Under the pieces are notes generated by a model. That model did not search any database, had not been told where the DNA came from, and saw only the letters and a program-made list of their open reading frames with translations. Below, piece by piece: positions 10,389-56,774 of a DNA stretch of 64,000 bases. Origin of the DNA: Eledone cirrhosa (lineage: Eukaryota); assembly GCA_964016885.1 (NCBI GenBank), contig OZ024740.1, positions 17,484,001 through 17,548,000 of the forward strand, in the 5' to 3' direction. A program made the position numbers and the translations under genes. Positions within the stretch are counted from its first letter, which is position 1. Each line of letters begins with the position of its first letter.

Positions 10389-11249
10389 GTGATGCGTCAA
10401 GTCAGCACTGTGACTGTGATAACCTCTCAACGCCATCTTCGTCGCCATCTTCGGCAGTGCATCTACAGAACTTAAAAGACCCTCCACATTGTCTTGCCAA
10501 AAAACGAAGAACTCGCCTAAGGCCAAATCGAAACATAGTGATAAGTTATTCTTCAAAACGGAAAAAAACTAAATTTCAAAACTTACGGACACCTCCGAAG
10601 AGGACGATGAGGACTACGATGAATTCGTTGCCTCCAGAAAAGAGTAGTTGCAATATATTTGCAGTGGGAGAAAGTAGTGTTGATAGTGGAGTGTCTAGCT
10701 TAAGAAACGAAACCGAGACGGAGATGGACAGTAATTCTCCCGGGTTGGAGTCTGTGGCATCGACGGTGTCGATATCACGATCAATGACCCCACAGGACAC
10801 TGGATGTGTGAATTTAATGGAAGAGGATAATGTTATGTCAGAACCTTGTATGTTTGTTTCAGATCTGCTCACTCCTATGTGTAGTAGTAGTAGTAGCAGC
10901 AACAGTAGTAGTAATGGTAGTAATCAACTGTTATTGCCGTGTGATGACCTCAACACAGATACAAAACAGTCATCATCAACAGAAGACAAATATGGAAGCA
11001 TTAACAACCGTTATGCATCCAAGATCAAATCTTGTCGATCAACGACGACGTACTTGTGTCCTGAAGCAAATTCTGTATCAAAACAGTCACTTGCTTCTTC
11101 GAATGCAAGTGGATATTCTTTGAATGACCAGACTTTTGGAATGTATAATAACCCTAAAAACTCTCTCGGAACGTCTAACCGATGGGAAATGAGTGCTCTT
11201 TTAAAGCTCCAGAACCCTTTAATCTCCATCAGGAATAAAATTGTCCGAA
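10389..11249 (+). CDS. MPHOSPH8: MPP8-like large exon: basic NLS-like ([15 protein letters not shown]) and Ser-rich low-complexity region
   Basis: 861-nt open frame; acceptor tttctttatttctag|gt, donor cgaa|gtaagt; phase 1 matches the exon at 37324. Linkage to the downstream exons is inferred from phase only. Confidence 0.75.
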
Positions 11250-35000: not shown

Positions 35001-37763
35001 CAGTAAACATGTACTAACTAGGGTAATTTTTATAGAACCTAAATATGTCTTTAATAGTGGCTGTTTGTTTTAAAATTTTACTGAAGCTACTGGCTTTTCA
35101 AAACAGTCTTTTTAAAACATTGTTTTGGAAACCTTGTAAGTTTGGCAAAGTTTTGAAGTGAACAGATGTATTAATAACAGATATATACACATGTAGGATT
35201 GGTGCTTCTCTTAAAACAAAAAATAATTATGTAAAATAATTGTTTCTACTTTTGGCACAAAACCAGCAATTACCCAGTACATTACTGGTACTTTATTTTA
35301 TCAACCCCGTAAGGATGAAAGGCAAAATTAACCTCGACGGGATTTGAACTCGGACCGTAAAGGGACGTAACTATGCTAGAAAGCATGGCGTCCAATCCTC
35401 TACCGATACTGTCAATTCTCTTTTCTTTCATATTGTACCTGACTATAAAAGATGGTGAACCTTGATAAAGAGTACATGTGGCTTGAGGTGTGGAAAAGGA
35501 AGGAGGGGGGGGGGGGTATGACAAAAACATTGTTGACAACTTAAAGCTCCCACTATGTAGAGGGGGGAGGAAGGAGTTAGAGGACAGTAAGTTTGACATT
35601 GACACTGTGGCTGCTAGGAAAACTCAGAATTGCATCCAGAAAGTTGAGTAGTTCATTGAAGAAGGCCTCTATTAGGATATGCAAGATTGCCTGCTGTGAT
35701 AAGACTTTTAGGACTTATATGAATGAAGACCTTGCTGCAAGTATTACCTGATGTCAACAGGTCAGCTGCTCCGTCACCTGCGTCCAAGGAGAACTGTATG
35801 AAGAGAGACAAGAAGCTGTTCAATGTGATGAAGTATTCCCTGGAATTAAACATGGGGTTTTTCTCCAGAACAAGGTACACAGCAAGGAGAATAACAGGTG
35901 GTTCCCAGGGTCATGAAAACTAAAGTTTTCTGTCCACATCATGGTTGTTAGTGTAATTAACAGTGAGGGTCATGTGAAGCCCCCTTACATCTTTAATGTA
36001 GGCCTGAAGGTGAACCAGTTCTGGAGACTGGTGAAGCCCTTGATTAAAGTGGTGACAGTGGGGAAGACTTTGTCTTCCAGCAAGATTCTGCACCTGCACA
36101 CATGGCCAGGAAGACACAAAAGTGGCCATTTAAGCCCAGACATATGGCCTCCTAATCCTTGACTATTTTTTCAGGGTACAGTTGAGTCACCAACAAGATT
36201 GCCTACAACACCAAGGACAAGTTGAAGCAGTGGCTAGGCATTCCAACTGCAACCGTGAAATGCACCTCCATTCCGAGGTCACCTCAAGGAGGTTATTAAA
36301 GTTAGCGAGGGTTATAATGAATAATTATATCATATACAGTTCTGGTAACTTCATGCATCTTGAATTTTCAATATATATTTGTCTTATGTCTCTATATATT
36401 TGTCTTACGTCTCAGACACCATCATAATATCTCAATATATATTTGTCTTATGTCTCAGACACCATTATAATATCTCAATATATATTTGTTCTTTATGTAC
36501 TAAACCTCCTCATAATATACTAATATATATTATGTTATATTTCAAACACTTGTTTAATATACCAAAATGTTTCAAAGGCTATCATATTTGTCTTCTGTTG
36601 TGTTCCAAACACCATCTCATTATTTCAACATATTTCTTATTTTCCAAGTGCCATCTTAATCTTTTAAGCTATATTATAACATTGAGATAATTGTATTTTT
36701 ACTAGGAATATGGCTATAGATGGGTTAAGTTAGATCGTTTAACTATTGTTTCTTTGTATTATTGAGTAGCATTGGTGATGTAGGATATGAGAAACTGCTG
36801 CAGCTAAACAAGAACAACTTTAAACTTAAAAGAGACATGAATTATTTCTTGATAGCCTACACCACATAAAACCACATTAGCAAGACACTCTTGAAATTTA
36901 ACAGCACCATGGCTGCATTGCATTAAAAATTAAAGTCTTTACACTAATACTACAAATTTTTACAACTAGTAAAACACTATAAACATTTGAATTAACAAAT
37001 CTGTTTTTAGATATTTTCTGTTGAATCATTAGATGTTAAGACATAACTTTACCCTTTCGTTACTGAATTTTTAATGACATATTTCAATTAATGAATTTGC
37101 AGGAATTTAATAAAATTATTTCATTATTAAAATAGTATTTCTAACATGGTCTATCTGTTGAGGGTGGTGATGTGAGTTGGTGGTTATGGAGGTTCATTTG
37201 GGGTCAGATTTTATAGGATGGGATGGAAGTGGCTTAATGGTAAGCATGTCTGTTACTTGTGGTCTGTTTTTTGTTGGGTGAGGTGTAATATTTATATTAT
37301 AAATGTTTTTCATTATTTTCCAGATTTCTTTGATGCTTGTACAACAGAAGAATTAACAAATTTTTGTTGCTGTTATCGAAGATCGGAGAGGTCACGGGAC
37401 TATGAGGTAATGTCACGCTTGTCTTTATCTCTTTCACTCTCTCCCTTTTTAAACATTATATGATGATATATATATGATGATATACATATATGATAATATA
37501 TATATATATATATAGTAATAATAATAAATTTGAAGACTAAAATCCAAAGAGAGCTCGATAAGGATAAATATATATCAAATATATAAGAACCATAGAGCAA
37601 ATATTTATTAAAATAACAGATTAAAGTTTAAGCAAAGAATCGCTGCTTCCACCCTTAACGGGATCTTCTGAAACTGAGTTTCAGAAGATCCCGTTAAGGG
37701 TGAAAGCAGCGATTCTTTGCTTAAACTTTAATCTGTTATTTTAATAAATATATATATATATGA

Positions 37764-42231: not shown

Positions 42232-45200
42232 TATGTATATTTGGCTTCTTGCTCACATTAATTTCTCTATTTTCATTTATATATGCAAATATATATACAT
42301 GTATCACAGTACAAGGAAAGAAGTTTAGCACTTGAAATAGCAGGCAGAGATTCTTAACGTTTCAGACACTAGTCAATCATCAGAAGATAGTTAGAAATAG
42401 AAGATGAATAGAAAGTAAAGAGTGATGAGAGGAAGGAACGGGGAAGATGAGAAAAAAATTGGGGAGGAGAAAAGAAACACACGTGTGTATTGAGTGAAAC
42501 AAGAGCGTTAGATCTTGGGTTGTTTTCCCACTAACTCAATTTGAGTATCAGTAAGACACCAACCCAAGACATATATATGACAGTCACTGCAAATGTCACA
42601 TTGACATGGTAAAGTCTAGTGACAGTTGCTGTCGGAACCCATAAAGAAAATGTCTGGCAGTATATTGGCAACACTTTGGAACCATCTATCATACTTAGAA
42701 TAAGGTATGGATTGGCTAGAAGAAGGACATCTGGTCAGGTCTTGTCTAACCCAAACATCAGCCGGGTAGGTGGAGGTGATTACAAGAACATACACGAGTG
42801 TGGGTGTTAACAGTTCTCCTGACACCTCATCTCCCACCCCTTCCACTCTGTCTCATAAAACTTTTCCTCCTCCCATTCTACTTTTACTTTTTTTATTCAT
42901 CTTATTTATTTCTCTTAAATCATACCAGACTGCTTGACTCTTGGTAGTGTGGTACCCTGCCTGGGTAGTGTGGTACCCTGCCTGGGTAGTGTGTTACCCT
43001 GCCTGGGTAGTGTGGTCCCCTGTCTTGTTAGTGTGGTACCCTGTCTGGGTAGTGTGGTACTCTGTTTGTCACCCTATAGCAATCTGTAAAAAGAGTAAAT
43101 TTAGTGGAAGATGAGTTTTTAAAATAAAAGCCTGCTGTCAACAATTACATTAATGGGACATGTATCTGTGGAATACTCAGTCATTTAGACATTAATTTAA
43201 TGAGTAACCCACCCAATTGATTAAACAGCTAGAATAGTCATCATTAAAACAGAGGTTCATTTACAGGTATTACATTGTCCTTGATCAAGTTACCTAACTT
43301 CAATTTTCTCTCACCTCACCCCTGAAGAAAACAACAAACAACTTTGATAAGTGGGATGCATCTTCATTATAAATTTATGGTCCCACATTGAGGGCTATCA
43401 ATTTATCACCAACTTGTACATGTTCTACTATCAAGCACTTATACACACTATCAAAGAACTTCTGGTCTCTTCAAACCAACAAAGTCACTGATTTTGATAA
43501 TGTTCCTTCTGTTGCCCTCACCAAAGCTAGGTCCTATACTCCTCTTTCTCCCTCTGTATATATATATAGTGTATGTGATTCAGTGCATTACTGGTGGTGG
43601 TACCAAAACAAGCACTGTATGCACAGGCAGTGTATATACTAAAAAAAAAAAAACCAATGAAGTTTCATTTACATGTATTTAGATATTTGTGTATCAACCA
43701 AAAATAGTGTTCTTTTGTCATATCACCAGCCTGAAGAGCGGATAACGGAATCAGGTCCATAACTTCTACATGTGACCCTGAGCCAATCCTCTTTGAAATA
43801 CATGTAACAGGTTGATACACAATAAAAATCTAAATACATGTAAACGAAACTTCATCATTTTTTTATATATATATATCATCATCATTTCATTTTACGTCCG
43901 CTTTTCCCTGTTTGCAAGGGTGGGACGGGAATGATTCTGGCATGATTTCTACAGCTGGATGCCCTTCCTAACACCAACCTCATTTACAGTGAGTGCTGGG
44001 TACTTTTTTGCCATGGCACCTCCACGACCACTTTGCAGTGGAATGATAGAGACCCCAGTCCCTATCATCTCATTTCTACAGCTGAGTAAACTGGAGCAAT
44101 GTGAAATAAAGTCTCTTGCTCAAGGAAACATCACATCACCCGGTCTGAGAATTGAACTCACAACCTTTCGATTGCAAGGCCAATGCTCTAACCACTAAGC
44201 CATATGCCTCCAATATATATATATATATATATATTTTTTTTTTTAGGAACAATCGACTTTCGTCACATCAGACCGAGGAACAATGTTTCCGTTGGTCTTT
44301 CCAATTGCTAATACTATCTATCTAGGTTGTTGTTAGGAAGGGCATCCAGCTGTAGAATTCAAGCCAGAACCAGTTCCCGTCCCACCCTTGCAAGCAGGGA
44401 AAAGCGGATGTAAAATTATATATATATATATACACACACATATATATATAATAGTCTCTGTATATGAATCAGGTGCCATTTGATGTTTATATAAGCTTTG
44501 ACGCTCACATATATATAATACTGTGTGTGTATGTGTATATATATATATATATACACATACATACTAGGATGTATGTATAATGTCAGTAGCATAACAAAAT
44601 TAACTCTTATTGAAGTAATTCTTCATCATTTTTACAGAGTACAGCTTCCACTTCAACCAAAAAACCCAGGTTATCCAATGGTACCATTCTTCACCTGTCC
44701 AATGGTAAGTGACCAACTTCTATCAACCAAGACTGTCTCCTCTTTAATTAAATTAAACCATCCATTTTATAGAATTCCTATTTGACATAAGTATCTTTTG
44801 TTATGTTCCAAATACCATTTTAATAATGAAATAATTAAGAATTTTTGGTAAATCCCTTCAAATTCTTCATCACTTAATTCAACTGCAGTTTGTTTCATTA
44901 GAAATATGGTCAGGAGAGAATAGAAATATCTAAAAGGCATTTCCATTCATTACCTCTGCTAGATACCATCTCAAGATCTAAGTCCTCTATGGCATTCTTC
45001 CTAACACCAGTGCCTGGTAGATGGACATTTTGTCATGTCACTCACAATAGACAGGGTCCTCAGTAGTCCACTGCAGAAGAACATATCTGCCATTGTTGCA
45101 ATACCAAGATGCTGGAAGTAAGGATGATATTGATCTGATTGCTGTAATTGATCTCCACGTAAAACCTTTCATTAGTTAATTAATCCCTTGCTAACCTATG

Positions 45201-48185
45201 TTGAACAGGGTCATTTATATATAGGATGTGTCTATTCTGTTTGGAATGGGTGCACTATATCTGTGAGTGTTGTAAGAAACAAATAAAAGGTTTAGTGACA
45301 AGAAGGGCATCTGGCTGTGAAACATTGCCTCAGTAAATCACATCCAACCTATGCCAGCATGGCAAAGGCAACATAAAAACTATGGTGAAGATGTGTATCA
45401 AGGGATTTTCTCAATAACAAATCAAATCATTTTAGACGAAAGATAAAGGAAATGTAATTTAACCCTTTAGCTACCAACCCGGCCAAAACCAGCTCTGGTT
45501 CTATGAAATAAAATCACCCATTTTAAAGGTTTCAAATTTAAATTAAAATCTTCCAACATAATTTTATATATTAAGTTACTTTCTTAGTAATGAAATAATA
45601 AATAATTTTAGTAAATCCCTCAAAATTCTTCATTAATTAATTAAAATAGTGTATTTCATTAGAGATGTGGTCTTGAAAGGGTTAAGCTTTGGCCTTTTTA
45701 TTCACTTTGATGTTTTCTGGTTTCAGATGAATTTTCACAAGCTGTACTAGCAGGGGATTATGGTAAATTAAAATCTGCTTTGAGAGGGGATCGTTGGAGA
45801 TATGACCTGGAATCTCCAAACAGTGGTGGCTACACATTAATAATGCAGTCTATTTTGAGAGGTAAGTAGTTGTTTTCTGTGACCCTCACATTCAGCTCAA
45901 GATGGATATCTCCCTCACAATATGAAATTAGTGTTGTAAAAGAAATATAGGATATAATCGCTATATATACTCGAATATAAGCCGAGAAATATGCCCCCTC
46001 CCCTCCCCAACGGGCTTTATATCCGCTTGAGCTGATTAGCTGCTTCAGTTTATATTCGGGGTTTAGATCTAAGTCTATTTCTCAGGGGTGAGGGTGGGGG
46101 GCTTATATTTGGATCGGCTTTGTTCAAATATATACGGTAACTGCCTTAAAATGTTCTTACAAACAATTATAGAGGAAAGTTTAAATTGAAACATGACCAC
46201 TTTACAACAAATAATTTTTCATGAGAGAAGCAAGGGCAGTTTCAGGCAGGTTTCAAAAGGGTTCAGGGACTTTTACCACCACTTTATTAACAAATGTGTG
46301 TATGTGATGGTTCAAGTGTTTTCTATGACATGTTCATTATTTTATATTCACAGGTTTCAGTGATATTACCTTACTGTTGGCACTTGCTGGTGCTCAACTG
46401 GACAAAGAACTCAGCACTGGTGAAACTGCATTGACGTTAGCTTGTACCAGGGTAAGATTTCATTTCCAAATAGCAGCCCTCATTTATTTGTTCCATTTCT
46501 TAGTATATATGACCTACTTTATTTTTTTTTTAATCAAAAATAGCCAAAAATATAAAAATATGTCAACTGAATCTTATAGGCACCATTGATTACCAATATT
46601 TACCAAACAGTATTAAAAATATTTTCCTGCTATCTAGTTGTATGTTATGCTTTATGTATCCAGTTTAAAATAAGTGCACCATATGTGTGTCATAAGAGGT
46701 AACCAAAACGGCTGGCACCAGGAAGGGCATCCAGTTATAAAACATTGCCTTGTCCTGTCATGGAACCTGCACAACTAACCTCTACCTTAGTAGGGTAATT
46801 TAGCTGTGTATTATTATTGATTCCACAGTATTGTGAGAGGTTTTTCCTCAAATTACTCTAGATGATCTCCTATTGGGAAACTTCTCATGTTTGTTTTATT
46901 ATTGTCATTATTTCTACCATTTTCTGTTGATTTTTACCTACATTTTACTCAATGTAAAATACGATTTTCGTCTTTATGCACGATGATGCTTCTTGGATCG
47001 CTGGTTTAGGATGACCCCAGCCTCGTCAAGCAAGAGAAAGAAAAAGAAATGGCATTTGGTTATTTTTTTTTTTTTTTTTTTTGTCTTTGTACTGTCCCAA
47101 AAATATTGTCATAGTGGCCAATATGAAATTATAATTATTATTATTGCTGCTGTTGTTATTGGCGGGTTTGGTAGTGTTGGACAACAGGCTTTGCAGCATA
47201 TAGTTACTGTTCATGTTCTGAGTTCAAATCACGCTGAGGTTAACTTTACCTTTCGTCCATATAGGGTCGATAAAATAAAGTACAAAATTGCTGGCTTGTG
47301 TCTAAATCAGAAACTATGATTACTACTGCTGTTGCTGTTATTATTACTGTTTATACTATGTTGACATGTTTCAAACCTCAAATATTTTTCTTTGTTTTTA
47401 TTGTAGGGAGAAGTTGAAGCTGTGGAAGTCCTCGTTAAGCTTGGCGCTAATTTAGAGAAGTACACATCCAACAAAGAAACTGCGTTAATAAAATCTGTGT
47501 TGAGCGGCAATCTTCATATAGTGAAGTTACTGCTAGACCATGGTGCTAATGTTGGTTTTCAAAATAAGGACAACCTGAATTCTTTGGATTTAGCCAGTAA
47601 AAATCCAAATCTTGCTGATATAGAGAGCCTTCTTTCAAGCTACAAGGAAAAGTAAGCTACCAAGATTTTAAAAATATATTTTTTTGTCAGCTAGTTTGAA
47701 TAGTGTCCCTCTCTCTAACCAAGGCCCTTGGTATATTTGCATATTTGCTGTACATTCAGACAAACCTAATTTGGGATGTAATGATAGAGCTGGTAGATAA
47801 GGGAGATAATTCTTAAATCATTTTTTTTTTTTTTTTGACAAGTTTGGTAGAAGTAGTTCCACAACAGTTAATTCATCATTTCCGAGAACAATTGTTTCAC
47901 CTTAGTCGGATCATCAGTTCAGTTTAAATGATGAATTAACTGTTGTGGAACTACTACCAACAATTTTGCAAGAGATGTCAACATGAATGGACCAGTTATT
48001 TTTATCTAAAGACATTTTTTCCAATTCCAACCCGCCCATCCCCTCAATCTATTTTATTTCTCATTCTTTCTTCTGATGAAGGACTAGCGTCCGAAACGTT
48101 AAGACCCTCTTCATGCTATATCAAGTGTTAACCTAATATATCCCTTCCATATACTCTACCGATTGTGTTATTTCTATTTACCTTT

Positions 48186-48226
<41 letters not shown>

Positions 48227-51089
48227 ACCCCACAGCCAGGAATAAATTTCAAAGCATATTACTTGATGCTTTCGACAGTAAGGAAGAACATTTAGAGTCG
48301 GACAATATAGAGGGAGAGTGGGAATTTCTGAAAGCAAACCTGCTGTTGGCGACAGACGAAGTCTGTGGCTGGAGCAGGCCTGTAGGCAGGAGGAGAGTAA
48401 CATGGTGGTGGAACAGTAAGGTGGAGGGGTCAATTAAGGCCAAAAAGCAGGCTTGGAAAGTATGGCGGGATGGGGGAAGTAGAGAGGACTATCAAGTGGC
48501 CAGGAGGGAAGCTAGGAGACAAGTGTACTTAGCAAGAAGGGAAGCTGAGGAAAGAAAGTTCAAGCATGTTCTACAACGCGATGACCAAAAACGTGAGGTG
48601 TTCAGGATTGCTAGGCAATGCGTCAAGGAAAACCGTGATATTGTCGGGGAGAAGTGTGTACTAAACGACGATGGCACACTTGCCATCACCGACGCTGATA
48701 AGAAGGTAGCTTGGAAGTGTCACTATGAAAGGCTACTAAATGAGGAGAATAATTGGGAGAAAGGCAGTCTCCCCCATATCGACCCAATAGAGGGACCAGC
48801 AGTGTTAGTCGAGGGGAGTATAATAAGTAAGGCAATCAAGGATATGAAGACTGGTAAGGCGGCTGGGCCTTCGGAAATAGTTGCTGAGATGCTGAAGGCA
48901 TCTGGCACGGTGGGACACACCATGGTCACCCGCATAGTTAACCAAGTCGTACAGAATGGGGTTGTTCCGAAGGACTGGCATAGCAGCATCATCGTTAACT
49001 GTTATAAGGGTAAAGGAGACGCCCTAGATAGGAGTAACTATAGAGGCATTAAATTAATCGACCAGGTCATGAAGGTCACGGAAAAAGTAATAGCGCAACT
49101 AATCAGAGAGAGAATTGACCTAGATGAAATGCAGTTCGGGTTTGTGTCAGGCAAAAGTACCACAGACGCTCTTTTCATAGTACGACAACTACAGGAGAAG
49201 TACCTAGCTAAAGGTAAACCCCTCTACTTAGCTTTTGTCGACTTGGAGAAAGCCTTCGACAGAGTCCCCCGCTCCATTATCTGGTGGGCTCTTAGAAAAC
49301 TAGGCGTTGACGAATGGCTTGTGAGGGCTATACAAGCCATGTATAAAGAAACAGTCAGCAAGGTTAGAATTAACAACGAATATAGTGAAGAGTTTAGCGT
49401 AAAAGTTGGCGTCCATCAGGGCTCTGTTCTCAGTCCACTACTATTTATTATTGCCCTTCAGGCTATAACAGAGGAGTTCAAGACAGGCTGCCCATGGGAA
49501 CTCCTATACGCAGACGACCTGACACTCATAGCGGAATCAATGGCCGAGCTAGAGAAGAAATTCCAAACATGGAAGCACGGCCTAGAGTCAAAAGGACTTA
49601 AAATTAACCTGGCTAAGACCAAAGTACTAGTTTGTAGGAAAGAAAACAAGGCGGCGGTCCCTTCTGGGAAATGGTCGTGCTCGGTGTGTAGGAAAGGCGT
49701 AGGTAGAAACTCCATTTTATGTCCTAAATGCAAAGTATGGGTGCATAAAAGATGTAGTGGGATCACAGGTAAGCTAACTAAGAACATAGATTTTACATGT
49801 GGCCGGTGCTCTGGTGCAATAAGTAGCAGCAAGTGCCCACAAACTACTAGCTCTTTCAATTGCGCAGAGGGTTCTATAGAAATAGTGGACAGCTTCCGTT
49901 ACCTGGGCGATAAAATCAGCAGTGGGGGAGGGTGCTCTGAAAGTACTGTAGCTAGAGTCAGAACTGGTTGGAAAAAGTTCAGAGAGCTTATACCACTATT
50001 AGCTGCTAAAGGGTTCTCACTAAAAATGAAAGGCAGGTTGTACGATGCCTGCATACGAACAGCAATGCTGCATGGCAGTGAGACCTGGGCATTGTGTGCA
50101 GAGGATATACGCAGACTAGAGAGGAACGAAGCTTGCATGCTCCGCTGGATGTGTAACAGTAATATACGTGAACGGCAAAGCATAAACGAACTAAGGAAAA
50201 AATTAGAGATAAGAGGGATCAGATGTTGTTTACTCGAGAGAAGGCTACGTTGGTATGGACACGTGATGCGCATGAAAGTCGATAGCTGTATAACAAAGTG
50301 CAGGGCAATAAAGATAGACGGTAGTCACGGAATAGGCAGACCTAGAAAAACCTGGGACGAGCTGATAAACTCCGACATCACACACTTACACCTCTCCAAG
50401 ACAATGTCACTGGACCGAGACCTTTGGCGGTACTCAGTAACAGAGAAGACCCGCCTTACCTAAATACAAAGTAAAACCTACTCCAGCCAGTAGGCATCTC
50501 TAACAAAATACACCCCGTCCCACCACCACCACCCCCACCCGATCCACACCACCCCGTTCTATGTAAAGTTATGTTGGTGCCGCGCCATCGAGGCCGAAAC
50601 AAATGAGATCGTGTAGGTGTCACGACAAAAAAACACACAGTCCACGCTGTAATGTGGCCGTGTAGGCAACACGGTAAAAACCTCCCAGACCCACACTGTA
50701 AATGTGGTTGGTGTTAGGAAGGGCATCCAACTGTAGAAAACCTGCCAGACAGTCCTATGCGAGCAAGACAATCACTCTTGCCTCAAGTGGGACTACCCCC
50801 GTCCAAACCCATGCAAGCGTGGAACACGGACGTTAAACGTTGATGATGATGATGATGATGATATATATATGGTCAAGGGATGTTTAGGTTGCTTTGATTT
50901 TAAGAATATTCCTAGGGAATGATGCTTGTGAAGTGTTCATTAGAGTACTTTACTGGGATCTACCCTTTAGTGATTCTCTATATATATTTGCTTCTCTGAA
51001 TGAGATCTTTTTAATGATCCCTTTTCATTGAGATGTTATGTATATTTGTGGCAATTTTAATTATGTATAATAATTCTATATATTTTATA

Positions 51090-51141
<52 letters not shown>

Positions 51142-54100
51142 ATGATGACTTGTTTTATGTTGTTGTTTTTCAGAATTTCCAGTCAAATGAATCAATGTAT
51201 TAAAAGCTGGCTCGGTGAACAAAACACTTTGCTGGAAGAGGTGTTCCCCATTCAGTGTATGTCACTTGCTAAAAGCCGAAAAATTCAAATTTCATTTCGT
51301 CACATTATAAAGGAATGTACTTATTGTAAGTTAATAAACAGTTTTTGTGGTTGTTGTTGTTGTCGTAGCTGTGGATACAGCATGGACAAATGGTTAAGCA
51401 CTGGATGAGATACCTTCTGGTATTTGTTTCAGTTCTTTACCTTGAGTTCAAATTATTCTGTGTCCTACTTGTGTAGTATACCCAATCTGTTGTCCAGTTA
51501 GCATGACCACCTAGTCCTTGGGTGTCTTTAGCTTGTAACATACTCCACTATGTTACAAGTATTTAGACGAGAGCATAGGTGTGAGGATATCCCCCCCCCC
51601 CATTCATGTCATGTAGGTAGTCAGTGAACCAATTAGGTGGGATTTATTAATCTATTGATTTAATGTGTGTTAATAAGATTATGATTGCTCACACTATTGA
51701 CCTCATCTTTGGTGTAGGTCTAAATATTGAAGTAAATATTGGATTTAATAAACACACAATTGTAGAATATTGACAAAATACTTGCAGCATTTCTTCTGGT
51801 CCTTTTAGCTTTTCAGTTCAAATCCTGCAAATACCAACTCTGCCTTTCATCCTTCTGGATTTGATAGAATAAAGTACCAGTCATATACTGGGGTTAATGT
51901 AATCAACTTTCCCTCGACATTACTGCCTAAATTAGAAACCATGTAATGTGGTAGTGCTGGTGCCACAAAAAGAAAAACACACCCAGTACATTTTGTAGGT
52001 GATTGGTGTTAGGAAGGACATCTAGCCATAGAAACCAAGCCAAATATAGATGGAACATAAGATATTGACATGTCTGGTCCTAGCTTCAAAAGTGACAACC
52101 CATGCTAACATAGAAAGCAAATGTAAAGACGATGTTGATAATATTGTTATTTTGATACACTTACTCAGCCACATACAAAAATGCTTGTAACTCGTCTAAC
52201 TCATGCTAACCTGGAAAATGGACATTAAACGGGGGTGATGATGATGTTTAACCCTTTAGCATTCGCATTAATTTTCAAACGTCATGCTTATCTGTTCGCA
52301 TTATTTTGAGTTAATCGTCCCTTTATGATCTGAGCTCAAATCCCGCCGATGTTAACTTTGCCTTTCATCTTTACGGGGTCGATAAAATAAAGTACCAGTA
52401 ATGCACTGGGTAATTGCTGGCCTTGTGCCTAAAGTAGAAACAATTATTTTGAGTTAATCATACTCAAGAGGGTTATCAATTTTATTTGTTTGTAATTTTC
52501 TTAATTTTCTATGTGCAGGCTTGAAATTTTGTCAGTGGATGTTTAAATATCAATAATATACAATTATATAATTTTACCTGATTTTTTTTTTGGTCAAATT
52601 TGACTTTTATGGGCAGGTGAAATTAATTAATAGGGGCATTTGAAATATCAACCAGGTGCAAATACTGGTTTAATTTTAAATACGTTGTTTTCGGCATAAT
52701 ACTTGATATATAAGGATCACTAAACCTTATATCAGTGTTCCAGTAATTCCACAGTCTTGAAAATTGTTTTATACCGAACATAATATTTACGGTAAAAAAT
52801 GCTTGCATTTCCGCAGCATCTGTCGGTCGCCATAACAGATTGGGTTTTCCTCGATTTGAAATCTGTTGTTGGGTATATCGATTAATCTCTTCTGCCACAA
52901 CTTCAAAGAAAGTTTGTGGTAAAAACAAAAAGAAATAATCCAGTGCTTTATTATCGGAAGCTAATGTGTGTTGTGGATCAGTATTTTGAATAAAATCAGG
53001 AACATATATTAGTGTGGTATTTTTCAACCACGTTGCTGTAATATTTTCAATGGTGTCCTGGAGATCTCCTTCGTTTTCACTTTCAAAACAACAATCATCG
53101 TCGGACGAAATTTCAGAAATATAAACATCAGATTCATTTGAAGATAAATCACTAATATTATCGTTTTTTTCTTATTTATTCTGAATGTCGTCGTGTGTAA
53201 AACCTTCAAAGTCGATATCGCTACTTTCATAAGCCATGTTGATACAAAAAAAAAAATTTGTTGTACTTTCAAAGTTAAAAAAAACACTTGTTGTTTTAAG
53301 TTTTCACTATATTGAGTGTTAATTTTTGCGGTAAAGGCCTAATCTCGCAGTAATCTCAAATTGACGAGATTTTGATGGTTTGTTTATTTTTAGAACAATT
53401 TTTTTTAGTGTGGGTGTTATCGGGCGATTTCGGGTGGCTTAAACAAATGAAGGGGAAATAATTTCGTTCAGTTTGAACACTAAAGGGTTAACCCTTTAGT
53501 ATCTACATTACTCTATATATACTATTGTACTTTCACGGTAAAGGTTTCTCACATAATATCGAATCTGAGATTTTGATATTTAATTTGAGAGCAATACCTT
53601 CACATCAGTATGAGCGGCCAGTTTGAACAGAAAGAGGAGAGAAAATTCTGGCCGAATGTGGCCGGTTTAAATACTAAAGGGTTAAAGGTTGGATTGTGTT
53701 GAAAACATGTTTCTGTTTTTATTGTTTTCACATGTGATTTACTCTGTCTCTAGATGAAGGTTATCTCCTGTTTCTGGTCCATGTCAACGATATAGCAGCA
53801 CTACAAATTGGTTGCAGGTTAAAAGGAGAATCTGTGGTATCTCAGGTGTGGTTGAATGGTGTTTTAGAGAAACAAGTATCCTTGGTAAGTAGACTTTATC
53901 ATCAGTTTATAACACCACCAACACTTGAATAGAGTCTACTTTGTTGAAAATATTTTAACCAAGTTTCCTCCAGTTTTGGAGGATAGGGGATGCTTTACTC
54001 CCTATTTTCCACTAATTTTGAAGGCCCTGAAAATAGACATGGGCATGAGCTAAACAACAATTTAAAAAATAGCTATTTTTGTTTGTTTTATCATATACTA

Positions 54101-54316
54101 AACTTAAGGGCTAGAAAAATAAAACCCCTATGTAGTCAGAGCTCTGCTAGACAAAGCAGCCTAATCTCTCTCAAATCACACCTTTTTTTTTTAAAAAGCA
54201 ATGATAAAATTGGATAAATATTGTTCTTTGCACACTGAATAAAAGATGGGATGGTGACAAGTGGAACACCTTTGATCATGAGTCTGGATCAGAGTTGTCT
54301 TGGAGCTAAACAACAG

Positions 54317-54366
<50 letters not shown>

Positions 54367-55609
54367 CGTGAACCTAATAAACCTTTATTTGTCTGCCTCT
54401 CAGTTTTGTTCCCGTCTAAATTTGCACTATATATATATATATGTATATCGACAGTCGATTGACTTTCGTCAAGCAATGTTTCCGTTGGTCTTTCCAATTC
54501 CTAAATATATATATATATATATATATTCATCATCATCATTTAATGTCTGATATTTAAAGTTGGGTGTCACATTTTATTTTTATTTGTAGCCATCAAAGTT
54601 TGTGATGTCATTCAGGAATCTCAGGCATGGAGACAACACACTGCTTATTGAAACATACCCTGACGTTAGGGTAAGTTGCTTTTTCATCCTTCCTTCTAAC
54701 AACACACACACTGTTGAATTGGTACCTTGATCAGTTTCCAAACAAAAACCCACTACTTATTGCTGGAAGCTTTGTAAATTTCAGTCGGATAGTCTGTATT
54801 TTGTTGCTTGACCTGCAGCAAATAGTAACCAAATAACTCTTCAATTCCAACCCCCCTTTTGTTACCAACCTGGTTAAAATCAGTTTTGATTCTATCAAAC
54901 AAAACCACCAATTTAAATGGATTCTTGTTTAAATTAAAATCTTCCAATAATTTTATATAAGAACCATGTTAAATTACTATCTTAGTAATGAAATAAGTAA
55001 TAATTTTAATAAATCCCTCAAAATTCTTCATTAATTAATTGAAATAGTGAATTTCATTGGAAATACAGTAACAAAAAGGATAAAAATTTGTAAAACACTA
55101 CATTTTGTGTGTACATATAGACATGGATAGAGAAATAGAATCAGAATTGTTTCATTTACGCTCAGAGTTGCTGAAGCATGGAACCTGCAGGAATTATTAA
55201 CTGTCGAGACACTACATACTTCAAAACTTCCATGCTTCCTGAAATTTGATACACCTGATATTCCTCCTTCACACACGTGTGTGTCTATGTATATCATGAC
55301 TCATACTCTGTTCACTTTCCTGACATTTGTGCATTATTCTATGTACTGTACATGCACCTTTAATGACTTGTAGTGCACCTGAGCACAGTATACAATAATT
55401 TTCATTATTTATTTTTAAGTTCCTCACTGCAAAAATTTGAATAGGTGAATATACTCCAACACATGTATTAAGTACTTATGTTTTCTCCCATTGCTACAAA
55501 TAAATGTTCACACCTTCTTTTATACATATATATATATTTATTCTCTCTCTTTTTCTTCCAGATAACGTTATTAATATGTGCATATAAAATTAGGATGAAT
55601 ACTGGTTGA
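10389..55609 (+). CDS. MPHOSPH8: MPP8 (M-phase phosphoprotein 8)-like gene, spliced: join(10389..11249,37324..37406,44638..44704,45727..45861,46354..46451,47407..47651,51174..51325,53754..53884,54590..54670,55562..55609)
   Basis: All junctions are GT-AG with compatible phases (1,0,1,1,0,2,1,0,0), giving one open frame to TGA at 55607..55609. Ankyrin repeats are followed by [58 protein letters not shown]. These match, in order, human MPP8 LLEPVFPIAC, GILLFIFH, ARLCGPCSVQAVVLND, SHFVYSF, GPNKLFI, VKLLIGAYRV (human sequence recalled from memory). Confidence 0.85.
11571..11664. repeat. Fold-back inverted repeat, 32-bp perfect arms, degenerate hammerhead-like core on the - strand (11597..11619)
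   Basis: aaatggcttctacaggactagaactgtttcat ... atgaaacagttctagtcctgtagaagccattt; - strand reads CTGGTGA-t-ttc-tttt-gaa-t-GAAA. Confidence 0.85.
13047..13083. repeat. Perfect 17-bp-arm hairpin
   Basis: ggtgaacatattgtcat-ggg-atgacaatatgttcacc. Confidence 0.9.
13380..13752 (-). mobile_element. TTAA-flanked piggyBac-type MITE (family A) interrupted by a ~160-bp tRNA-containing insert
   Basis: Both parts align to the reverse complement of the uninterrupted copy 45463..45681; ends ...taaaggg-TTAA. Confidence 0.75.
13499..13569 (+). pseudogene. Degenerate tRNA-Gly(GCC)-derived sequence
   Basis: gcatcagtggttcagtggtagaatgctc...cctggccaatgca follows eukaryotic tRNA-Gly(GCC) over 71 nt; anticodon reads gag, and the T-arm and anticodon stem are mutated. 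Confidence 0.8.
14059..14258. mobile_element. TTAA-flanked piggyBac-type MITE (family B)
   Basis: TTAA-ccctttagtattt ... aaatgctaaaggg-TTAA; second copy at 53492..53681. Confidence 0.85.
14277..14483 (+). mobile_element. SINE family 1
   Basis: gtggattggcag head, gagttcaaatcc B-box, ttgcctttcatcc, ccttgtgcctaa tail. Confidence 0.85.
15101..15327 (+). mobile_element. SINE family 1, full-length reference copy
   Basis: tRNA-like head (tggcagtatcggtagagc), B-box, conserved body, (att)n tail; more than 15 related copies in the window. Confidence 0.9.
15464..18187. repeat. 31-bp satellite (ttaacctgacacagtctatattaacctctag), about 88 units
   Basis: Direct reading; recurrent variants (cct/cca/tct, gtc/gac, 2-bp deletion). 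Confidence 0.98.
19590..19990 (-). mobile_element. Old RTE-clade LINE ORF fragment (C-terminal region)
   Basis: - strand translates [42 protein letters not shown], the RTE-type RWxGHxxRM...GRRPRG block. Confidence 0.7.
20325..20755. repeat. Degenerate tandem repeat (tgttgcaca.tgacaattgcat core)
   Basis: Multiple imperfect copies, including a ~60-bp duplication at about 20558 and 20650. Confidence 0.7.
22180..22420. repeat. 39-bp minisatellite, about 6 units
   Basis: ctcctatatatacagctcctatgactgttataggggtct repeated. Confidence 0.92.
22885..22979. mobile_element. 95-bp TA-flanked fold-back element (MITE-like)
   Basis: TA-ggaaaatgttagaccccg ... cggggtctaacattttcc-TA perfect terminal inverted repeats, with an internal hairpin. 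Confidence 0.7.
23215..27085 (-). mobile_element. Tx1/L1-clade non-LTR retrotransposon, 5'-truncated and frameshifted (ORF1 C-terminus plus ORF2 EN-RT-zf)
   Basis: APE endonuclease ([26 protein letters not shown]); RT ([41 protein letters not shown]); C-terminal CxxC...[10 protein letters not shown]; ORF2 ATG at 26785; flanked by gtaagata at 23207..23214 and 27086..27093. Confidence 0.93.
27097..27764 (+). repeat. 46-bp tandem array (about 11 units, 27097..27600) running into an RTE-type 3' tail
   Basis: cctagcccacactgtaaagttgtcctgtaggtgtcacaataaaaca repeated, then gtgttaggaagggcatcca...(gat)n as at 50700..50862. Confidence 0.92.
27799..27988 (-). mobile_element. SINE family 1
   Basis: Near-identical to 2452..2648. 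Confidence 0.88.
28480..28515 (-). ncRNA. Type I hammerhead ribozyme motif, degenerate (family 2)
   Basis: - strand tctt-CTGATGA-a-gga-ctagtt-tcc-GAAA-tgtt-aaga; lies in a ~190-bp repeat homologous to 47960..48188. Confidence 0.6.
29025..29212. repeat. ~32-bp C-rich minisatellite, about 6 units
   Basis: attcttctgtgaccctacagcccc repeated imperfectly. Confidence 0.85.
30143..30753 (+). mobile_element. Hammerhead-bearing repeat in partial tandem (about 1.4 units of 420-440 bp), retrozyme / Penelope pLTR-like
   Basis: 30143..30313 is repeated at 30561..30753; one hammerhead between; second diverged copy at 31643..31950. Confidence 0.7.
30425..30467 (+). ncRNA. Type I hammerhead ribozyme (family 1)
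   Basis: acgttg-CTGACGA-t-agct-aata-agct-t-GAAA-ctag-TA-cagcgt: intact core, 6-bp helix I, 4-bp helix II, palindromic ACTAGT helix III, GUA cleavage triplet. Confidence 0.85.
31643..31950 (+). mobile_element. Second copy of the hammerhead-bearing repeat
   Basis: Colinear with 30290..30590; bounded by (TA)n. Confidence 0.75.
31787..31829 (+). ncRNA. Type I hammerhead ribozyme (family 1)
   Basis: acgatg-CTGATGA-t-agct-aata-agct-t-GAAA-ccag-TA-catcgt: intact core, perfect 6-bp helix I. Confidence 0.85.
32910..33069. repeat. Fold-back inverted repeat, ~60-bp arms around a (TG)/(TA)/(CA) centre
   Basis: cacctatttttttttattccaacacttgtgtgcatg.acgaataaatgtgtg and its reverse complement. Confidence 0.88.
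35235..35415 (-). mobile_element. SINE family 1
   Basis: Colinear with 2452..2648. Confidence 0.85.
35590..36330 (+). pseudogene. Tc1/mariner-superfamily (maT/DD37D-like) transposase relic
   Basis: Frameshifted blocks [52 protein letters not shown] typical of maT-type transposases. Confidence 0.78.
37324..37406 (+). CDS. MPHOSPH8: MPP8-like exon ([27 protein letters not shown])
   Basis: tttttcattattttccag| acceptor, gag|gtaatg donor; phases 1/0 bridge the neighbouring exons. Confidence 0.65.
37601..37751. repeat. Near-perfect 151-bp palindrome (75-bp arms, 1-nt spacer, 1 mismatch)
   Basis: Centre ttctgaaact-g-agtttcagaa at 37676; single-arm copy at 38561..38631; flank shared with 30762..30875. 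Confidence 0.95.
38107..38443 (+). mobile_element. SINE family 2 (tRNA head, CORE-like block, RTE-derived tail)
   Basis: tggcttaggggttagagc A-box, gagttcaattc B-box, ccttgagcaagacacttta, gtgttaggaagggcatcca tail. Confidence 0.88.
38634..39055 (+). mobile_element. SINE family 2 with two internal ~46-bp units and (gat)n tail
   Basis: Colinear with 38107..38443; tail matches the LINE 3' end at 50695..50862. Confidence 0.88.
39730..40768. repeat. 38-bp satellite (tgtttgataactaacattacttctaaacatattctcta; 36- and 34-bp variants), about 28 units
   Basis: Direct reading. Confidence 0.97.
42352..42387 (-). ncRNA. Type I hammerhead ribozyme motif (family 2-like)
   Basis: - strand tctt-CTGATGA-tt-gac-tagt-gtc-t-GAAA-cgtt-aaga. 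Confidence 0.7.
42941..43061. repeat. 21-bp minisatellite, about 6 units
   Basis: ctgggtagtgtggtaccctgc repeated. Confidence 0.9.
43657..43855. repeat. Inverted repeat (~43-bp arms) enclosing a CTGAAGA motif
   Basis: atgaagtttcatttacatgtatttagat..gtgtatcaacc / ggttgatacac..atctaaatacatgtaaacgaaacttcat; CTGAAGA at 43731..43737. Confidence 0.8.
43876..44211 (-). mobile_element. SINE family 2
   Basis: Reverse complement near-identical to 38107..38443. Confidence 0.88.
44638..44704 (+). CDS. MPHOSPH8: MPP8-like exon ([22 protein letters not shown])
   Basis: tttttacag| acceptor, aatg|gtaagt donor, phases 0/1. Confidence 0.75.
45463..45681. mobile_element. TTAA-flanked piggyBac-type MITE (family A), intact
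   Basis: TTAA-cccttt ... aaaggg-TTAA; degenerate relatives near 41400..41660, 44710..44915 and 54850..55085. Confidence 0.85.
45727..45861 (+). CDS. MPHOSPH8: MPP8-like exon, first ankyrin repeats ([21 protein letters not shown]...[12 protein letters not shown])
   Basis: Canonical splice sites, phases 1/1; resembles human MPP8 AVKNGDY..VKVAL...SGMTLVM. Confidence 0.9.
45961..46139. mobile_element. Tc1/pogo-type MITE relic
   Basis: Imperfect terminal inverted repeats tatatactcgaatataagccga / tcggctttgttcaaatatatacggta. Confidence 0.55.
46354..46451 (+). CDS. MPHOSPH8: MPP8-like ankyrin exon ([33 protein letters not shown])
   Basis: Canonical sites, phases 1/0, GETAL ankyrin motif. Confidence 0.92.
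47407..47651 (+). CDS. MPHOSPH8: MPP8-like ankyrin exon ([15 protein letters not shown]...[27 protein letters not shown]...)
   Basis: Clear ankyrin consensus; ttgtag| acceptor, aa|gtaagc donor, phases 0/2. Confidence 0.95.
47853..47954 (-). ncRNA. Hammerhead-like motif forming the entire loop (47882..47925) of a perfect 29-bp inverted repeat
   Basis: - strand ctgaa-CTGATGA-t-cc-gactaa-gg-t-GAAA-caattg-TT-ctcgg; palindromic ACAATTGT helix III; helix I has one mismatch. Confidence 0.6.
48069..48104 (+). ncRNA. Minimal type I hammerhead ribozyme (family 2)
   Basis: tctt-CTGATGA-a-ggac-tagc-gtcc-GAAA-cgtt-aaga: intact core, 4-bp helices I and II, loopless palindromic AACGTT helix III. Confidence 0.75.
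48223..50862 (+). mobile_element. RTE-clade LINE, 5'-truncated, uninterrupted RT ORF (48223..50463, 746 aa), 3' UTR and (GAT)n tail
   Basis: [73 protein letters not shown]; no endonuclease domain; inserted in (TA)n. Confidence 0.96.
51174..51325 (+). CDS. MPHOSPH8: MPP8-like exon, start of the C-terminal domain ([28 protein letters not shown]...)
   Basis: Canonical sites, phases 2/1; [10 protein letters not shown] resembles MPP8 LLEPVFPIAC. Confidence 0.9.
52317..52442 (+). mobile_element. 5'-truncated SINE family 1 with 17-bp target-site duplication, nested in a TTAA-ccc MITE-like fragment
   Basis: attattttgagttaatc at 52300..52316 and 52443..52459. Confidence 0.88.
52623..53487 (-). mobile_element. 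piggyBac element 5' part: terminus, 5' UTR and truncated transposase pseudogene (ATG at 53237)
   Basis: Acidic N-terminus [13 protein letters not shown]...(one in-frame stop) in frame with [36 protein letters not shown]; terminus TTAA-cccttt at 53491..53482. Confidence 0.88.
53492..53681. mobile_element. TTAA-flanked MITE family B sharing the TTAA of the piggyBac end
   Basis: aaaggg-TTAA-ccctttagtat ... atactaaaggg-TTAA; colinear with 14059..14258. Confidence 0.87.
53754..53884 (+). CDS. MPHOSPH8: MPP8-like C-terminal domain exon ([12 protein letters not shown]...[24 protein letters not shown])
   Basis: Canonical sites, phases 1/0; not in the ORF track. Confidence 0.9.
54590..54670 (+). CDS. 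MPHOSPH8: MPP8-like C-terminal domain exon ([27 protein letters not shown])
   Basis: tttgtag| acceptor, agg|gtaagt donor, phases 0/0. Confidence 0.88.
55145..55410 (+). mobile_element. CR1-clade LINE 3' fragment
   Basis: Diverged inverse of 62585..62860 (acgctcagagttgctgaagcatggaac ... gtagtgcacctgagcac). Confidence 0.8.
55562..55609 (+). CDS. MPHOSPH8: MPP8-like terminal coding exon ([15 protein letters not shown])
   Basis: Long pyrimidine tract + cag acceptor; resembles the MPP8 terminus VKLLIGAYRVQLQ*; candidate AATAAA at 56101. Confidence 0.88.
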   Translation: MTLLICAYKIRMNTG

Positions 55610-56774
55610 AAATATTTGTCGGCGACAGTAAGAAAATGTTCGAAATTTAGAAAAAAAATACCAGGTGAAACGATAACAGATAGGAAAGAGGAAAACAACG
55701 TGAAAAAAGTGAGAAAAGGAAACACAAAGTAACCTTTACCCTTTGTCTTTCATATATAAAGGAGGAAACGCTATTATTATTGCCCTAATTTATATCGACA
55801 AATAGACACATGGAAAGCAATAGTCTGGTGATTTAGGAATTCAAGCAGGTTTGTGAACTCCCAGTTCATTGTATAGTTAGTGGAAGTGAAGTTCACACTC
55901 CTCCAACACTACCAAAATTAAACCACCCCACCATCAGCAGCATTTATTGCAAAGGTTATAATAGTGAACACAAATACAGAGTTCATTTTCCACAGCAAGT
56001 ATAACCAAATTACTATCATTGCTATTATTATTATTATTATTATTATTACATGGACCATACCGTTTCACCAAGGAGTTGTTTCCTCACAATCCCCAATCTG
56101 AATAAATTAACGAAGGAGGTTCCTACCATTGACACCAGACGGAGGATCGCTGTCGTCACCGCTGAGGCTGTTTGTCAATGTTGTCGTCATAGTAACGACC
56201 CTGAGATGCCCCACCCCCTCTTTTTTTTTCTCTCTAACACCTGGACACTGAGACAATTCAGAATCCTTGAGTCACCCCATCCCAAACAGAAAAACAAACA
56301 CAAAGAAGAAGAAAAAAATTAAATTCCACACAACCACTTTATATATGCATAATATATATAATATATATATATATACATGTATATGTGTGTGTATATATGT
56401 ATATGTGTGTGTGTGTATATATATATATATATACACACATAGACATGTACACCACTTCTCTCACTTAGACATCCTCCAACCAGATGTCTTACCTGACTCA
56501 CATGGTTCTCACTGACTTTGCTAGAAACCTCGGAATGTAAAGCTAAGTACTGTGTTGGTTTGTTGTGCTGCCACCGTTGTCGTAATCCTCACTCGACCAA
56601 TATTCTCAACTTTCAAAGCTGATCAACCAAGACTTGATATAATAACAGTAATATACTGGGTGAGGAGTACCTGTTCAAACCCTGCTCACTGCTGAGAGCA
56701 TGATCAACCAATCAGTTAAGAAAACACAGAAAAAATAGAGAAAGTAAGAGGTAGACATCACATCTTTCTTGATG

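What the first reader, a model, noticed from the sequence alone, without database searches (positions are those of the whole stretch)
45727..55609. An MPP8 (HUSH complex)-type ankyrin + C-terminal domain gene in an apparently invertebrate (octopod-like) genome
Seen: seven small exons, mostly missed by the ORF track, splice in frame to ankyrin repeats followed by a ~135-aa domain. Its motifs ([49 protein letters not shown]) occur in the same order as the human MPP8 C-terminus as I recall it. Established: MPP8, TASOR and Periphilin form HUSH, which silences LINE-1 and other intronless invaders. HUSH is mainly described in vertebrates, and the MPP8 ankyrin/C-terminal region is the TASOR-binding part. 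Inference: this retroelement-rich lineage may keep a HUSH-like silencing module.
Basis: partly seen in the sequence, partly recalled or inferred. Interest (0 to 1): 0.85.

Follow-up and report, generated by a model that had tools for sequence, protein, structure and literature searches.

The report
Octopus gene for HUSH subunit MPP8
An octopus-type genome carries an intact gene for MPP8, the part of the vertebrate transposon-silencing complex HUSH that likely reads repressive histone marks here too, but its two HUSH partners were not found, and databases already list MPP8-like genes in many invertebrates.

Summary
Observation confirmed and extended. The seven exons are real: all have AG acceptors, the six donors are GTAAG, and they form one open frame. 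They are the 3' end of a 14-exon, 467-kb gene for a 1,027-aa protein (chromodomain, disordered middle, ankyrin repeats, beta-sandwich), 90-91% identical to Octopus gene models. The post-ankyrin domain alone hits only human MPP8 in the PDB (E 2.7e-9), and its model matches MPP8 at Z 20.4, 1.8 A, ahead of the PIAS/Siz PINIT domains. It is an MPP8 orthologue.

It is not octopus-specific. The same domain occurs in molluscs, annelids, brachiopods, nemerteans, chelicerates, a centipede and echinoderms, often auto-named MPP8-like.

The HUSH inference is unproven. The only DUF3715 gene found lacks the SPOC-DomI block that binds MPP8, and no Periphilin was found, though exon-wise searches are insensitive. 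MORC genes are present.

New: the coleoid C-terminal module sits on a very long stem branch (31% identical to other molluscs, which share 46%). A 2025 review dates HUSH to cartilaginous fish, and a mouse paper asks whether octopus protocadherins have HUSH-like control. This gene makes that question testable.

The parts
10389..11249 (+).
   Evidence: tblastn 87% to P0001 398-680; TAG/GTAAGT, phase 1-1
37324..37406 (+). Coding exon 6 (83 nt); short motif conserved between octopus and cuttlefish, possibly the counterpart of the pre-ankyrin SPOC-binding segment (inference)
44638..44704 (+). Coding exon 7 (67 nt); basic, NLS-like stretch before the ankyrin repeats
45727..45861 (+).
46354..46451 (+). 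Coding exon 9; ankyrin repeat
47407..47651 (+). Coding exon 10; ankyrin repeats
   Evidence: Pfam Ank_2 E 2.7e-10
51174..51325 (+). Coding exon 11; long linker helix and first strands of the PINIT-like beta-sandwich
53754..53884 (+). Coding exon 12; core strands of the PINIT-like domain; one strong match in the genome
54590..54670 (+). Coding exon 13; PINIT-like domain
55562..55609 (+). Coding exon 14; last strand and stop codon
   Evidence: first AATAAA/ATTAAA downstream at 55917
48103..50460 (+). Not part of the gene product: LINE reverse-transcriptase frame (786 codons without stop) in the intron between exons 10 and 11, same strand
   Evidence: Pfam RVT_1 E 1.9e-32
52626..53171 (-). Not part of the gene product: DNA-transposase fragment in the intron between exons 11 and 12
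   Evidence: Pfam DDE_Tnp_1_7 E 2.2e-16

Best explanation
The exons are the 3' end of an intact octopod MPP8 gene, whose protein likely works as a silencing adaptor: its chromodomain is predicted to bind methylated H3K9 and H3K9-like peptides, and its ankyrin plus PINIT-like module likely docks a partner scaffold that brings repressive machinery to chromatin. Shown: gene structure, open frame, domain order, orthology, fold of the beta-sandwich, conserved aromatic positions in the chromodomain, and two MORC loci in the genome. Inferred from human MPP8: methyl-lysine reading and recruitment of SETDB1/ATF7IP or G9a/GLP. Open: the identity of the C-terminal partner. In vertebrates it is TASOR SPOC-DomI. 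In this genome no such protein was found, and the coleoid module has diverged strongly, so the partner is likely either a diverged TASOR-type protein or a replacement. Odds: orthology about 0.97; H3K9-methyl reader and repressor adaptor about 0.75; classical three-part HUSH about 0.35.
For: 14 exons, 1,027 aa, one stop, 90-91% to 4 Octopus models. P0001 730-1020 aligns to human MPP8 CTD 8QFB as one stretch, E 5e-31. The post-ankyrin 140 aa hit 1 of 177,635 PDB sequences at E<=10, which is 8QFB, E 2.7e-9. The model has pLDDT 92, Foldseek E 5e-11, TM 0.87 to 8QFB, and Z 20.4, rmsd 1.8 A over 136 residues, next Siz2/Siz1/PIAS3 at Z 10.4-11.3. Pfam Chromo E 8e-13 on P0001; its two chromodomain exons lie in this genome 54/55 and fully identical to P0001. 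F, W, Y, T and E positions match rodent MPP8 by inspection. 30 of 42 family members tested also carry the chromodomain. 53 of 73 columns conserved in both vertebrates and other invertebrates are kept. MORC S5 domain at two loci. Octopus has a SETDB1 orthologue and H3K9me3, and no 5mC on transposons (PMC9476566, passages).
Against: No functional or binding data. The chromodomain is not diagnostic alone: Rhino and CDYL score slightly above MPP8, and the cage acidic position appears to be Asn. Human TASOR-contact residues R741 and F813 (PMC7618375) are Q and L here, but they are also not kept in any of 18 other invertebrate rows, so this says little. 20 of 73 otherwise conserved columns are changed in the window protein. 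The acidic pre-ankyrin motif seen in vertebrates, gastropods and bivalves is not at the same spacing in coleoids. No TASOR with SPOC-DomI and no Periphilin were found.
Confidence: 0.72

Rival explanations
1. A full HUSH-like complex (MPP8, a diverged TASOR-like SPOC-DomI protein, Periphilin) exists in this octopod and silences long intronless transcripts such as LINEs and long-exon gene clusters; the partners were simply missed.
For: The only validated job of the MPP8 C-terminal module is TASOR binding (PMC7618375), and the module is intact. TASOR-like DUF3715-SPOC-DomI proteins occur in invertebrates (PMC10578480). The genome search is weak: a real DUF3715 gene scored only E 0.9. Human TASOR2 often lacks the DUF3715 domain (PMC7619638), so a partner need not show in DUF3715 searches. 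MORC loci are present.
Against: The one DUF3715 gene found has about 3,100 mostly disordered residues after the domain and no SPOC hit. A motif scan gave 18 matches, of which only that gene is DUF3715-like. Periphilin_C, TASOR alpha-beta and PIN_TASOR gave only spurious matches on inspection.
Confidence: 0.35
2. Coleoid MPP8 works without HUSH: the TASOR-type partner was lost or replaced on the coleoid stem, and MPP8 acts as a stand-alone H3K9-methyl reader bridging methyltransferases or a new partner.
For: Coleoid stem branch 1.53 changes per site against 0.63 for the vertebrate stem. Window vs 12 other molluscan rows 31%, against 46% among those rows. Pre-ankyrin motif displaced or lost. No canonical partner found. 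Human MPP8 is the only subunit that occupies chromatin without the others (PMC7619638).
Against: After the burst the module stays strongly conserved within coleoids (post-ankyrin 61-96% identity), as expected for a binding surface. Fast change also fits co-evolution with a retained partner. Absence of the partner is not shown.
Confidence: 0.4
3. The gene is another ankyrin family, a hidden paralogue or a pseudogene, and the MPP8 likeness is superficial.
For: On the whole protein, generic ankyrin chains outscore MPP8 in the PDB (rank 4). The free tree does not group coleoids with other molluscs.
Against: The post-ankyrin domain matches only MPP8 by sequence and best by fold. Same domain order as MPP8. 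One open frame over 14 exons. One strong genomic match for exon 12. A tree with all molluscs together is not rejected, p-AU 0.17.
Confidence: 0.03

Closest known systems
Human/vertebrate MPP8 (MPHOSPH8), PDB 8QFB, HUSH subunit
   Same: N-terminal chromodomain, long disordered middle, ankyrin repeats, long linker helix and PINIT-like beta-sandwich at the very C-terminus; about 31% identity over the C-terminal module; model rmsd 1.8 A over 136 residues.
   Different: Longer middle (1,027 vs 860 aa); TASOR-contact residues R741 and F813 not kept; pre-ankyrin acidic motif not at the same spacing; no TASOR or Periphilin partner demonstrated.
Invertebrate 'M-phase phosphoprotein 8-like' database proteins (O. 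vulgaris CAI9721350.1, O. sinensis LOC115210952, Gigantopelta, Lingula, Lineus, Mercenaria, Patiria, Uloborus and others)
   Same: Same architecture; 90-91% identical to the Octopus models, same exon junctions over the C-terminal module.
   Different: Coleoid copies are far more diverged from the molluscan norm than other molluscs are from one another. These are automatic names; no functional study was found in my searches.
Siz/PIAS PINIT domain
   Same: Same beta-sandwich fold (Z 10.4-11.3).
   Different: 7-13% identity; no SP-RING domain in this gene, so not a SUMO E3 ligase.
Other H3K9me chromodomain readers (HP1, Rhino, CDYL)
   Same: Chromodomain of the same class.
   Different: No chromoshadow or enoyl-CoA-hydratase-like domain; ankyrin plus PINIT-like module instead.

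Membership tests
MPP8 orthologue | N-terminal chromodomain in the same open frame | tested here: met
   Exons at G000:C1:17072093-17072257 and 17248097-17248258, in frame with the window exons; Pfam Chromo E 8e-13 on P0001
MPP8 orthologue | Ankyrin repeats aligning to the MPP8 C-terminal domain | tested here: met
MPP8 orthologue | C-terminal PINIT-like beta-sandwich after a long helix, no RING | tested here: met
   Pfam on P0001 lists no RING
MPP8 orthologue | Falls within the MPP8 family; no closer paralogue in the genome | tested here: met
   tree has no outgroup and placement among phyla is unresolved
MPP8 orthologue | Binds H3K9me3 and H3K9-like trimethyl peptides | not testable with these tools
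   Aromatic positions kept by inspection, acidic cage position appears to be Asn
HUSH complex | TASOR-like protein (DUF3715 followed by SPOC and DomI) | tested here: inconclusive
   One DUF3715 gene at G000:C22:22712488-22728677, without SPOC-DomI behind the domain; no second gene found; searches are exon-wise and weak
HUSH complex | Periphilin | tested here: inconclusive
   PF25234: 3 matches at E 1-7, none credible on inspection; no positive control genome
HUSH complex | Effector MORC ATPase | tested here: met
   Morc6_S5 exon clusters on C23 and C19; which is MORC2-like was not determined
HUSH complex | Effector SETDB1/ATF7IP | not tested
   Not searched in this genome; SETDB1 orthologue reported for O. 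bimaculoides (PMC9476566, passages)
HUSH complex | MPP8-TASOR binding and silencing of long intronless transcripts | not testable with these tools
   No partner sequence with SPOC-DomI was available; needs experiment

The most novel reading that the evidence does not exclude
The HUSH core is bilaterian, not vertebrate, and in coleoid cephalopods a rapidly remodelled MPP8 heads a HUSH-like complex that silences LINEs and controls the independently expanded protocadherin and C2H2 zinc-finger clusters, the same target classes that HUSH controls in mammals.
Probability: 0.3. Interest if true: 0.85.

Novelty: new member of a known kind. Interest (0 to 1): 0.5.

Why it matters
[quoted passage not shown] A complete MPP8 with the TASOR-binding module in an octopus, and in at least six other invertebrate phyla by database names, means this subunit is far older and was probably lost, not absent, in flies and nematodes. 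Hagelkruys et al. (10.1101/2021.11.29.466909, passage) note that octopus expanded protocadherins and C2H2 zinc fingers, and leave open whether a HUSH-like complex controls them. Octopus transposons lack 5mC (PMC9476566), so a histone-based route matters more there. This gene is the handle for that test. Interest is tempered because the orthologue is already auto-annotated, invertebrate TASOR-like proteins are published, and the partners were not found here.

Tried and rejected
RNA support: no RNA holder listed for window 45650-47700; 3 runs of one study hold 94-96% of the words; no reads were laid, so junctions and expression are untested on reads. Single exons against PDB or Pfam were too short to show the C-terminal domain. 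The ankyrin-including homologue search was crowded by generic ankyrins; only 4 of the 120 listed rows (three coleoids and Nucella) cover the whole module. PF12509 found nothing at E<=0.001 and 1 match at E 0.9, which proved real. PF23314 (3 matches; best one inspected), PF25234 (3; all inspected) and PF24630 (1; inspected) were repeats or noise. PF07744 SPOC gave 4 matches at three loci, none on the DUF3715 contig; they were not identified further. The DUF3715 exon found no homologue by word search, and the Atlas gave no usable hit for it or for that gene's C-terminal piece. A single-sequence fold of that C-terminal piece was low-confidence (pLDDT 47, all helical) and was not used for a fold search. 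No complex model was obtained, so there is no verdict on binding. The weak second match to exon 12 on C1150 (E 6.6, internal stop) was rejected as chance. Two of the 44 profile hits (P0124, P0156) look unrelated and were dropped. Earlier scan findings: three look-ups, nothing.

Full report
OBSERVATION. Reading the DNA gives seven exons: 45727-45861, 46354-46451, 47407-47651, 51174-51325, 53754-53884, 54590-54670, 55562-55609. All 7 acceptors end in AG, all 6 donors begin GTAAG, the phases match and the frame has one stop, at the end. The product aligns without gaps to the O. sinensis model P0001 (96% over 295 aa) and the Argonauta model P0002 (92%).

WHOLE GENE. P0001 carries a chromodomain (Pfam E 8e-13). 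Mapping it back finds three more exons in the window (10389-11249, 37324-37406, 44638-44704). The window is G000:C1:17484001-17548000. Four more exons lie upstream on the same strand: 17072093-17072257, 17248097-17248258, 17341463-17342257 and 17457446-17457506. Together 14 exons give one open frame of 1,027 aa over 467,517 bases, 90-91% identical to four O. bimaculoides, O. vulgaris and O. sinensis models and 84% to Argonauta. One 200-base gap lies in an intron. The organism is therefore an octopod (inference). Exon 12 has one strong match in the genome.

IDENTITY. The whole protein meets human MPP8 CTD (8QFB) over residues 730-1020 in one stretch, E 5e-31, ranked fourth behind generic ankyrin chains. 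The 140 residues after the ankyrin repeats hit exactly one of 177,635 PDB sequences at E<=10, 8QFB, E 2.7e-9. An AlphaFold2 model of that domain from P0001 (38-row alignment that includes vertebrate MPP8, no templates; pLDDT 92) matches 8QFB at Foldseek E 5e-11, TM 0.87 and Z 20.4, rmsd 1.8 A, 136 residues; next come Siz2, Siz1 and PIAS3 at Z 10.4-11.3. This is the pattern reported for human MPP8 (PMC7618375; passages and text parts 2-3 of 7 read). The chromodomain alone is not diagnostic: Rhino and CDYL score a little above MPP8. Its F, W, Y, T and E positions match rodent MPP8 by inspection, and the acidic cage position appears to be Asn (cage numbering partly recalled).

DISTRIBUTION. The post-ankyrin domain finds 44 proteins at E<=0.001 among 1.84 billion representatives; two look unrelated. 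I looked up 30 of the 44: 4 unnamed, 5 vertebrate (lamprey, shark, sturgeon, lungfish, rodent) and 21 invertebrate, from cephalopods, gastropods, bivalves, Lineus, Capitella, Lingula, a mite, a spider, a centipede and three echinoderm classes. Many are named 'M-phase phosphoprotein 8(-like)', including O. vulgaris CAI9721350.1. None of the named ones is an insect, nematode, cnidarian or sponge; 14 were not looked up. 30 of 42 proteins tested also carry the chromodomain. So the gene is the ordinary bilaterian MPP8, not an octopus oddity.

COLEOID DIVERGENCE. In a tree of 33 C-terminal modules (10 redundant or partial rows left out) the five coleoid-type rows form a fully supported clade on a stem of 1.53 changes per site; the vertebrate stem is 0.63. 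The free tree puts them beside arthropods with weak support, and a tree holding all molluscs together is not rejected (p-AU 0.17), so long-branch attraction is the likely cause. The window protein is 31% identical to 12 other molluscan rows, which share 46% among themselves and 42% with four other protostomes. Of 73 columns conserved in both vertebrates and 18 other invertebrates it keeps 53 and changes 20. Human R741 and F813, tested TASOR contacts, are Q and L here but are not kept in any of the 18 other invertebrate rows either. An acidic-hydrophobic motif just before the first ankyrin, the SPOC-binding segment in human MPP8, is visible in vertebrates, several gastropods and bivalves, and Lineus; coleoids have a basic stretch there and a conserved motif about 20 residues further up, in exon 6, that may be its counterpart (my reading of the alignment).

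HUSH PARTNERS. PF12509 gave no match at E<=0.001 and one at E 0.9. That match is a real gene on G000:C22. Eight exons between 22712488 and 22728677 have canonical splice sites and one open frame of 3,528 aa; its start and end were not found. Two exons hit DUF3715 in Pfam (E 0.004, 0.0006), and 3 of 3 exons tested have TASOR 6TL1 as their only PDB match, each weak (E 0.1, 1.1, 0.035), in the right order. After the domain come about 3,100 mostly disordered residues, including a 7,248-nt exon, then a helical end; no SPOC family hit and no folded block follows the domain. It therefore does not meet the published definition of TASOR-like (DUF3715-SPOC-DomI; PMC10578480, passages and the Results and Discussion section read; figures and supplements not available, so I could not see whether cephalopods were sampled). 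It may belong to the TEX15-side branch, but no TEX15 domain was detected. No second DUF3715 gene turned up by protein query or by motif (18 matches, 1 relevant). Periphilin_C, TASOR alpha-beta and PIN_TASOR gave only noise. These searches work exon by exon and nearly missed the real DUF3715 gene, so absence is not shown. MORC S5 domains occur at two loci.

MECHANISM. By orthology the protein likely reads methyl-H3K9 and similar methyl marks on SETDB1/ATF7IP and G9a/GLP with its chromodomain, and docks a scaffold on its ankyrin/PINIT-like module, leading to H3K9me3 spreading and compaction. The parts are shown; the activities are inferred from human MPP8. Whether the scaffold is a TASOR, and whether an RNA-binding Periphilin gives intron-sensing, is open; I put full HUSH at 0.35 and a HUSH-independent or rewired role at 0.40.

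LITERATURE. [quoted passage not shown] Hagelkruys et al. (10.1101/2021.11.29.466909, passages) say MPP8 has no orthologue in Drosophila or Caenorhabditis and leave open whether a HUSH-like complex controls protocadherins in octopus. The cephalopod epigenetics paper (PMC9476566, passages) reports SETDB1, H3K9me3 and unmethylated transposons and does not mention MPP8, HUSH or TASOR in its text or in the 12 of 22 supplements searched. PMC10380595 and PMC7955679 (passages) add nothing on invertebrate MPP8. Ten searches listed no paper describing invertebrate MPP8; the library holds open-licence papers only, and most listed papers were seen only as listings.

VERDICT. Real, intact MPP8 orthologue; new member of a known family, already auto-annotated in relatives. 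The HUSH-complex reading is plausible but unproven. Interest 0.5.

Noticed in passing
G000:C22:22712488-22728677 (L054-L056): DUF3715 (pseudo-PARP) gene, at least 3,528 aa in 8 exons, with a 7,248-nt exon and a helical C-terminal piece of no known family; no SPOC-DomI after the domain. Possibly an invertebrate TEX15-side protein, although TEX15 is described as vertebrate-specific.
   Followed up: partly
window 48103-50460 (+): LINE reverse-transcriptase frame of 786 codons without a stop inside an MPP8 intron, same strand, with a PHD-like zinc finger after the RT domain; no endonuclease domain hit, likely 5'-truncated and young.
   Followed up: partly
window 52626-53171 (-): DNA-transposase fragment (DDE_Tnp_1_7, piggyBac-like) in an MPP8 intron.
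   Followed up: partly
window about 23500-26800 (-): A second LINE-like element broken over several frames, with endonuclease- and RT-like motifs by eye, in the 26-kb intron between exons 5 and 6.
   Followed up: no
window 13499-13569 (+): tRNA-like sequence just over the Rfam threshold (34.2 bits), probably a SINE head.
   Followed up: no
window 47839-47968: Short hairpin with 43-nt arms, 88% complementary, 44 nt apart; MITE-like.
   Followed up: no
window 45463-45685 and 54854-55083: A dispersed repeat of about 220 nt occurs twice in MPP8 introns (77-84% alike).
   Followed up: no
G000:C23:2110677-2112500 and C19:8930571-8935167: Two MORC-family loci; not assigned to MORC2 or MORC3 types.
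   Followed up: no
G000:C22:22763422-22766769 and 22776144-22782142: HSP90-like exons and short-chain-dehydrogenase-like exons downstream of the DUF3715 gene (recognised by eye).
   Followed up: no
proteins P0026/P0142 and P0148/P0157: Nucella and Batillaria each have two MPP8-like database proteins, suggesting a duplication in these gastropods.
   Followed up: no
G000:C1:17072093-17539609: The MPP8 gene spans 467 kb, with 5' introns of 176, 93, 115 and 37 kb, while the last seven exons fit in 10 kb.
   Followed up: yes
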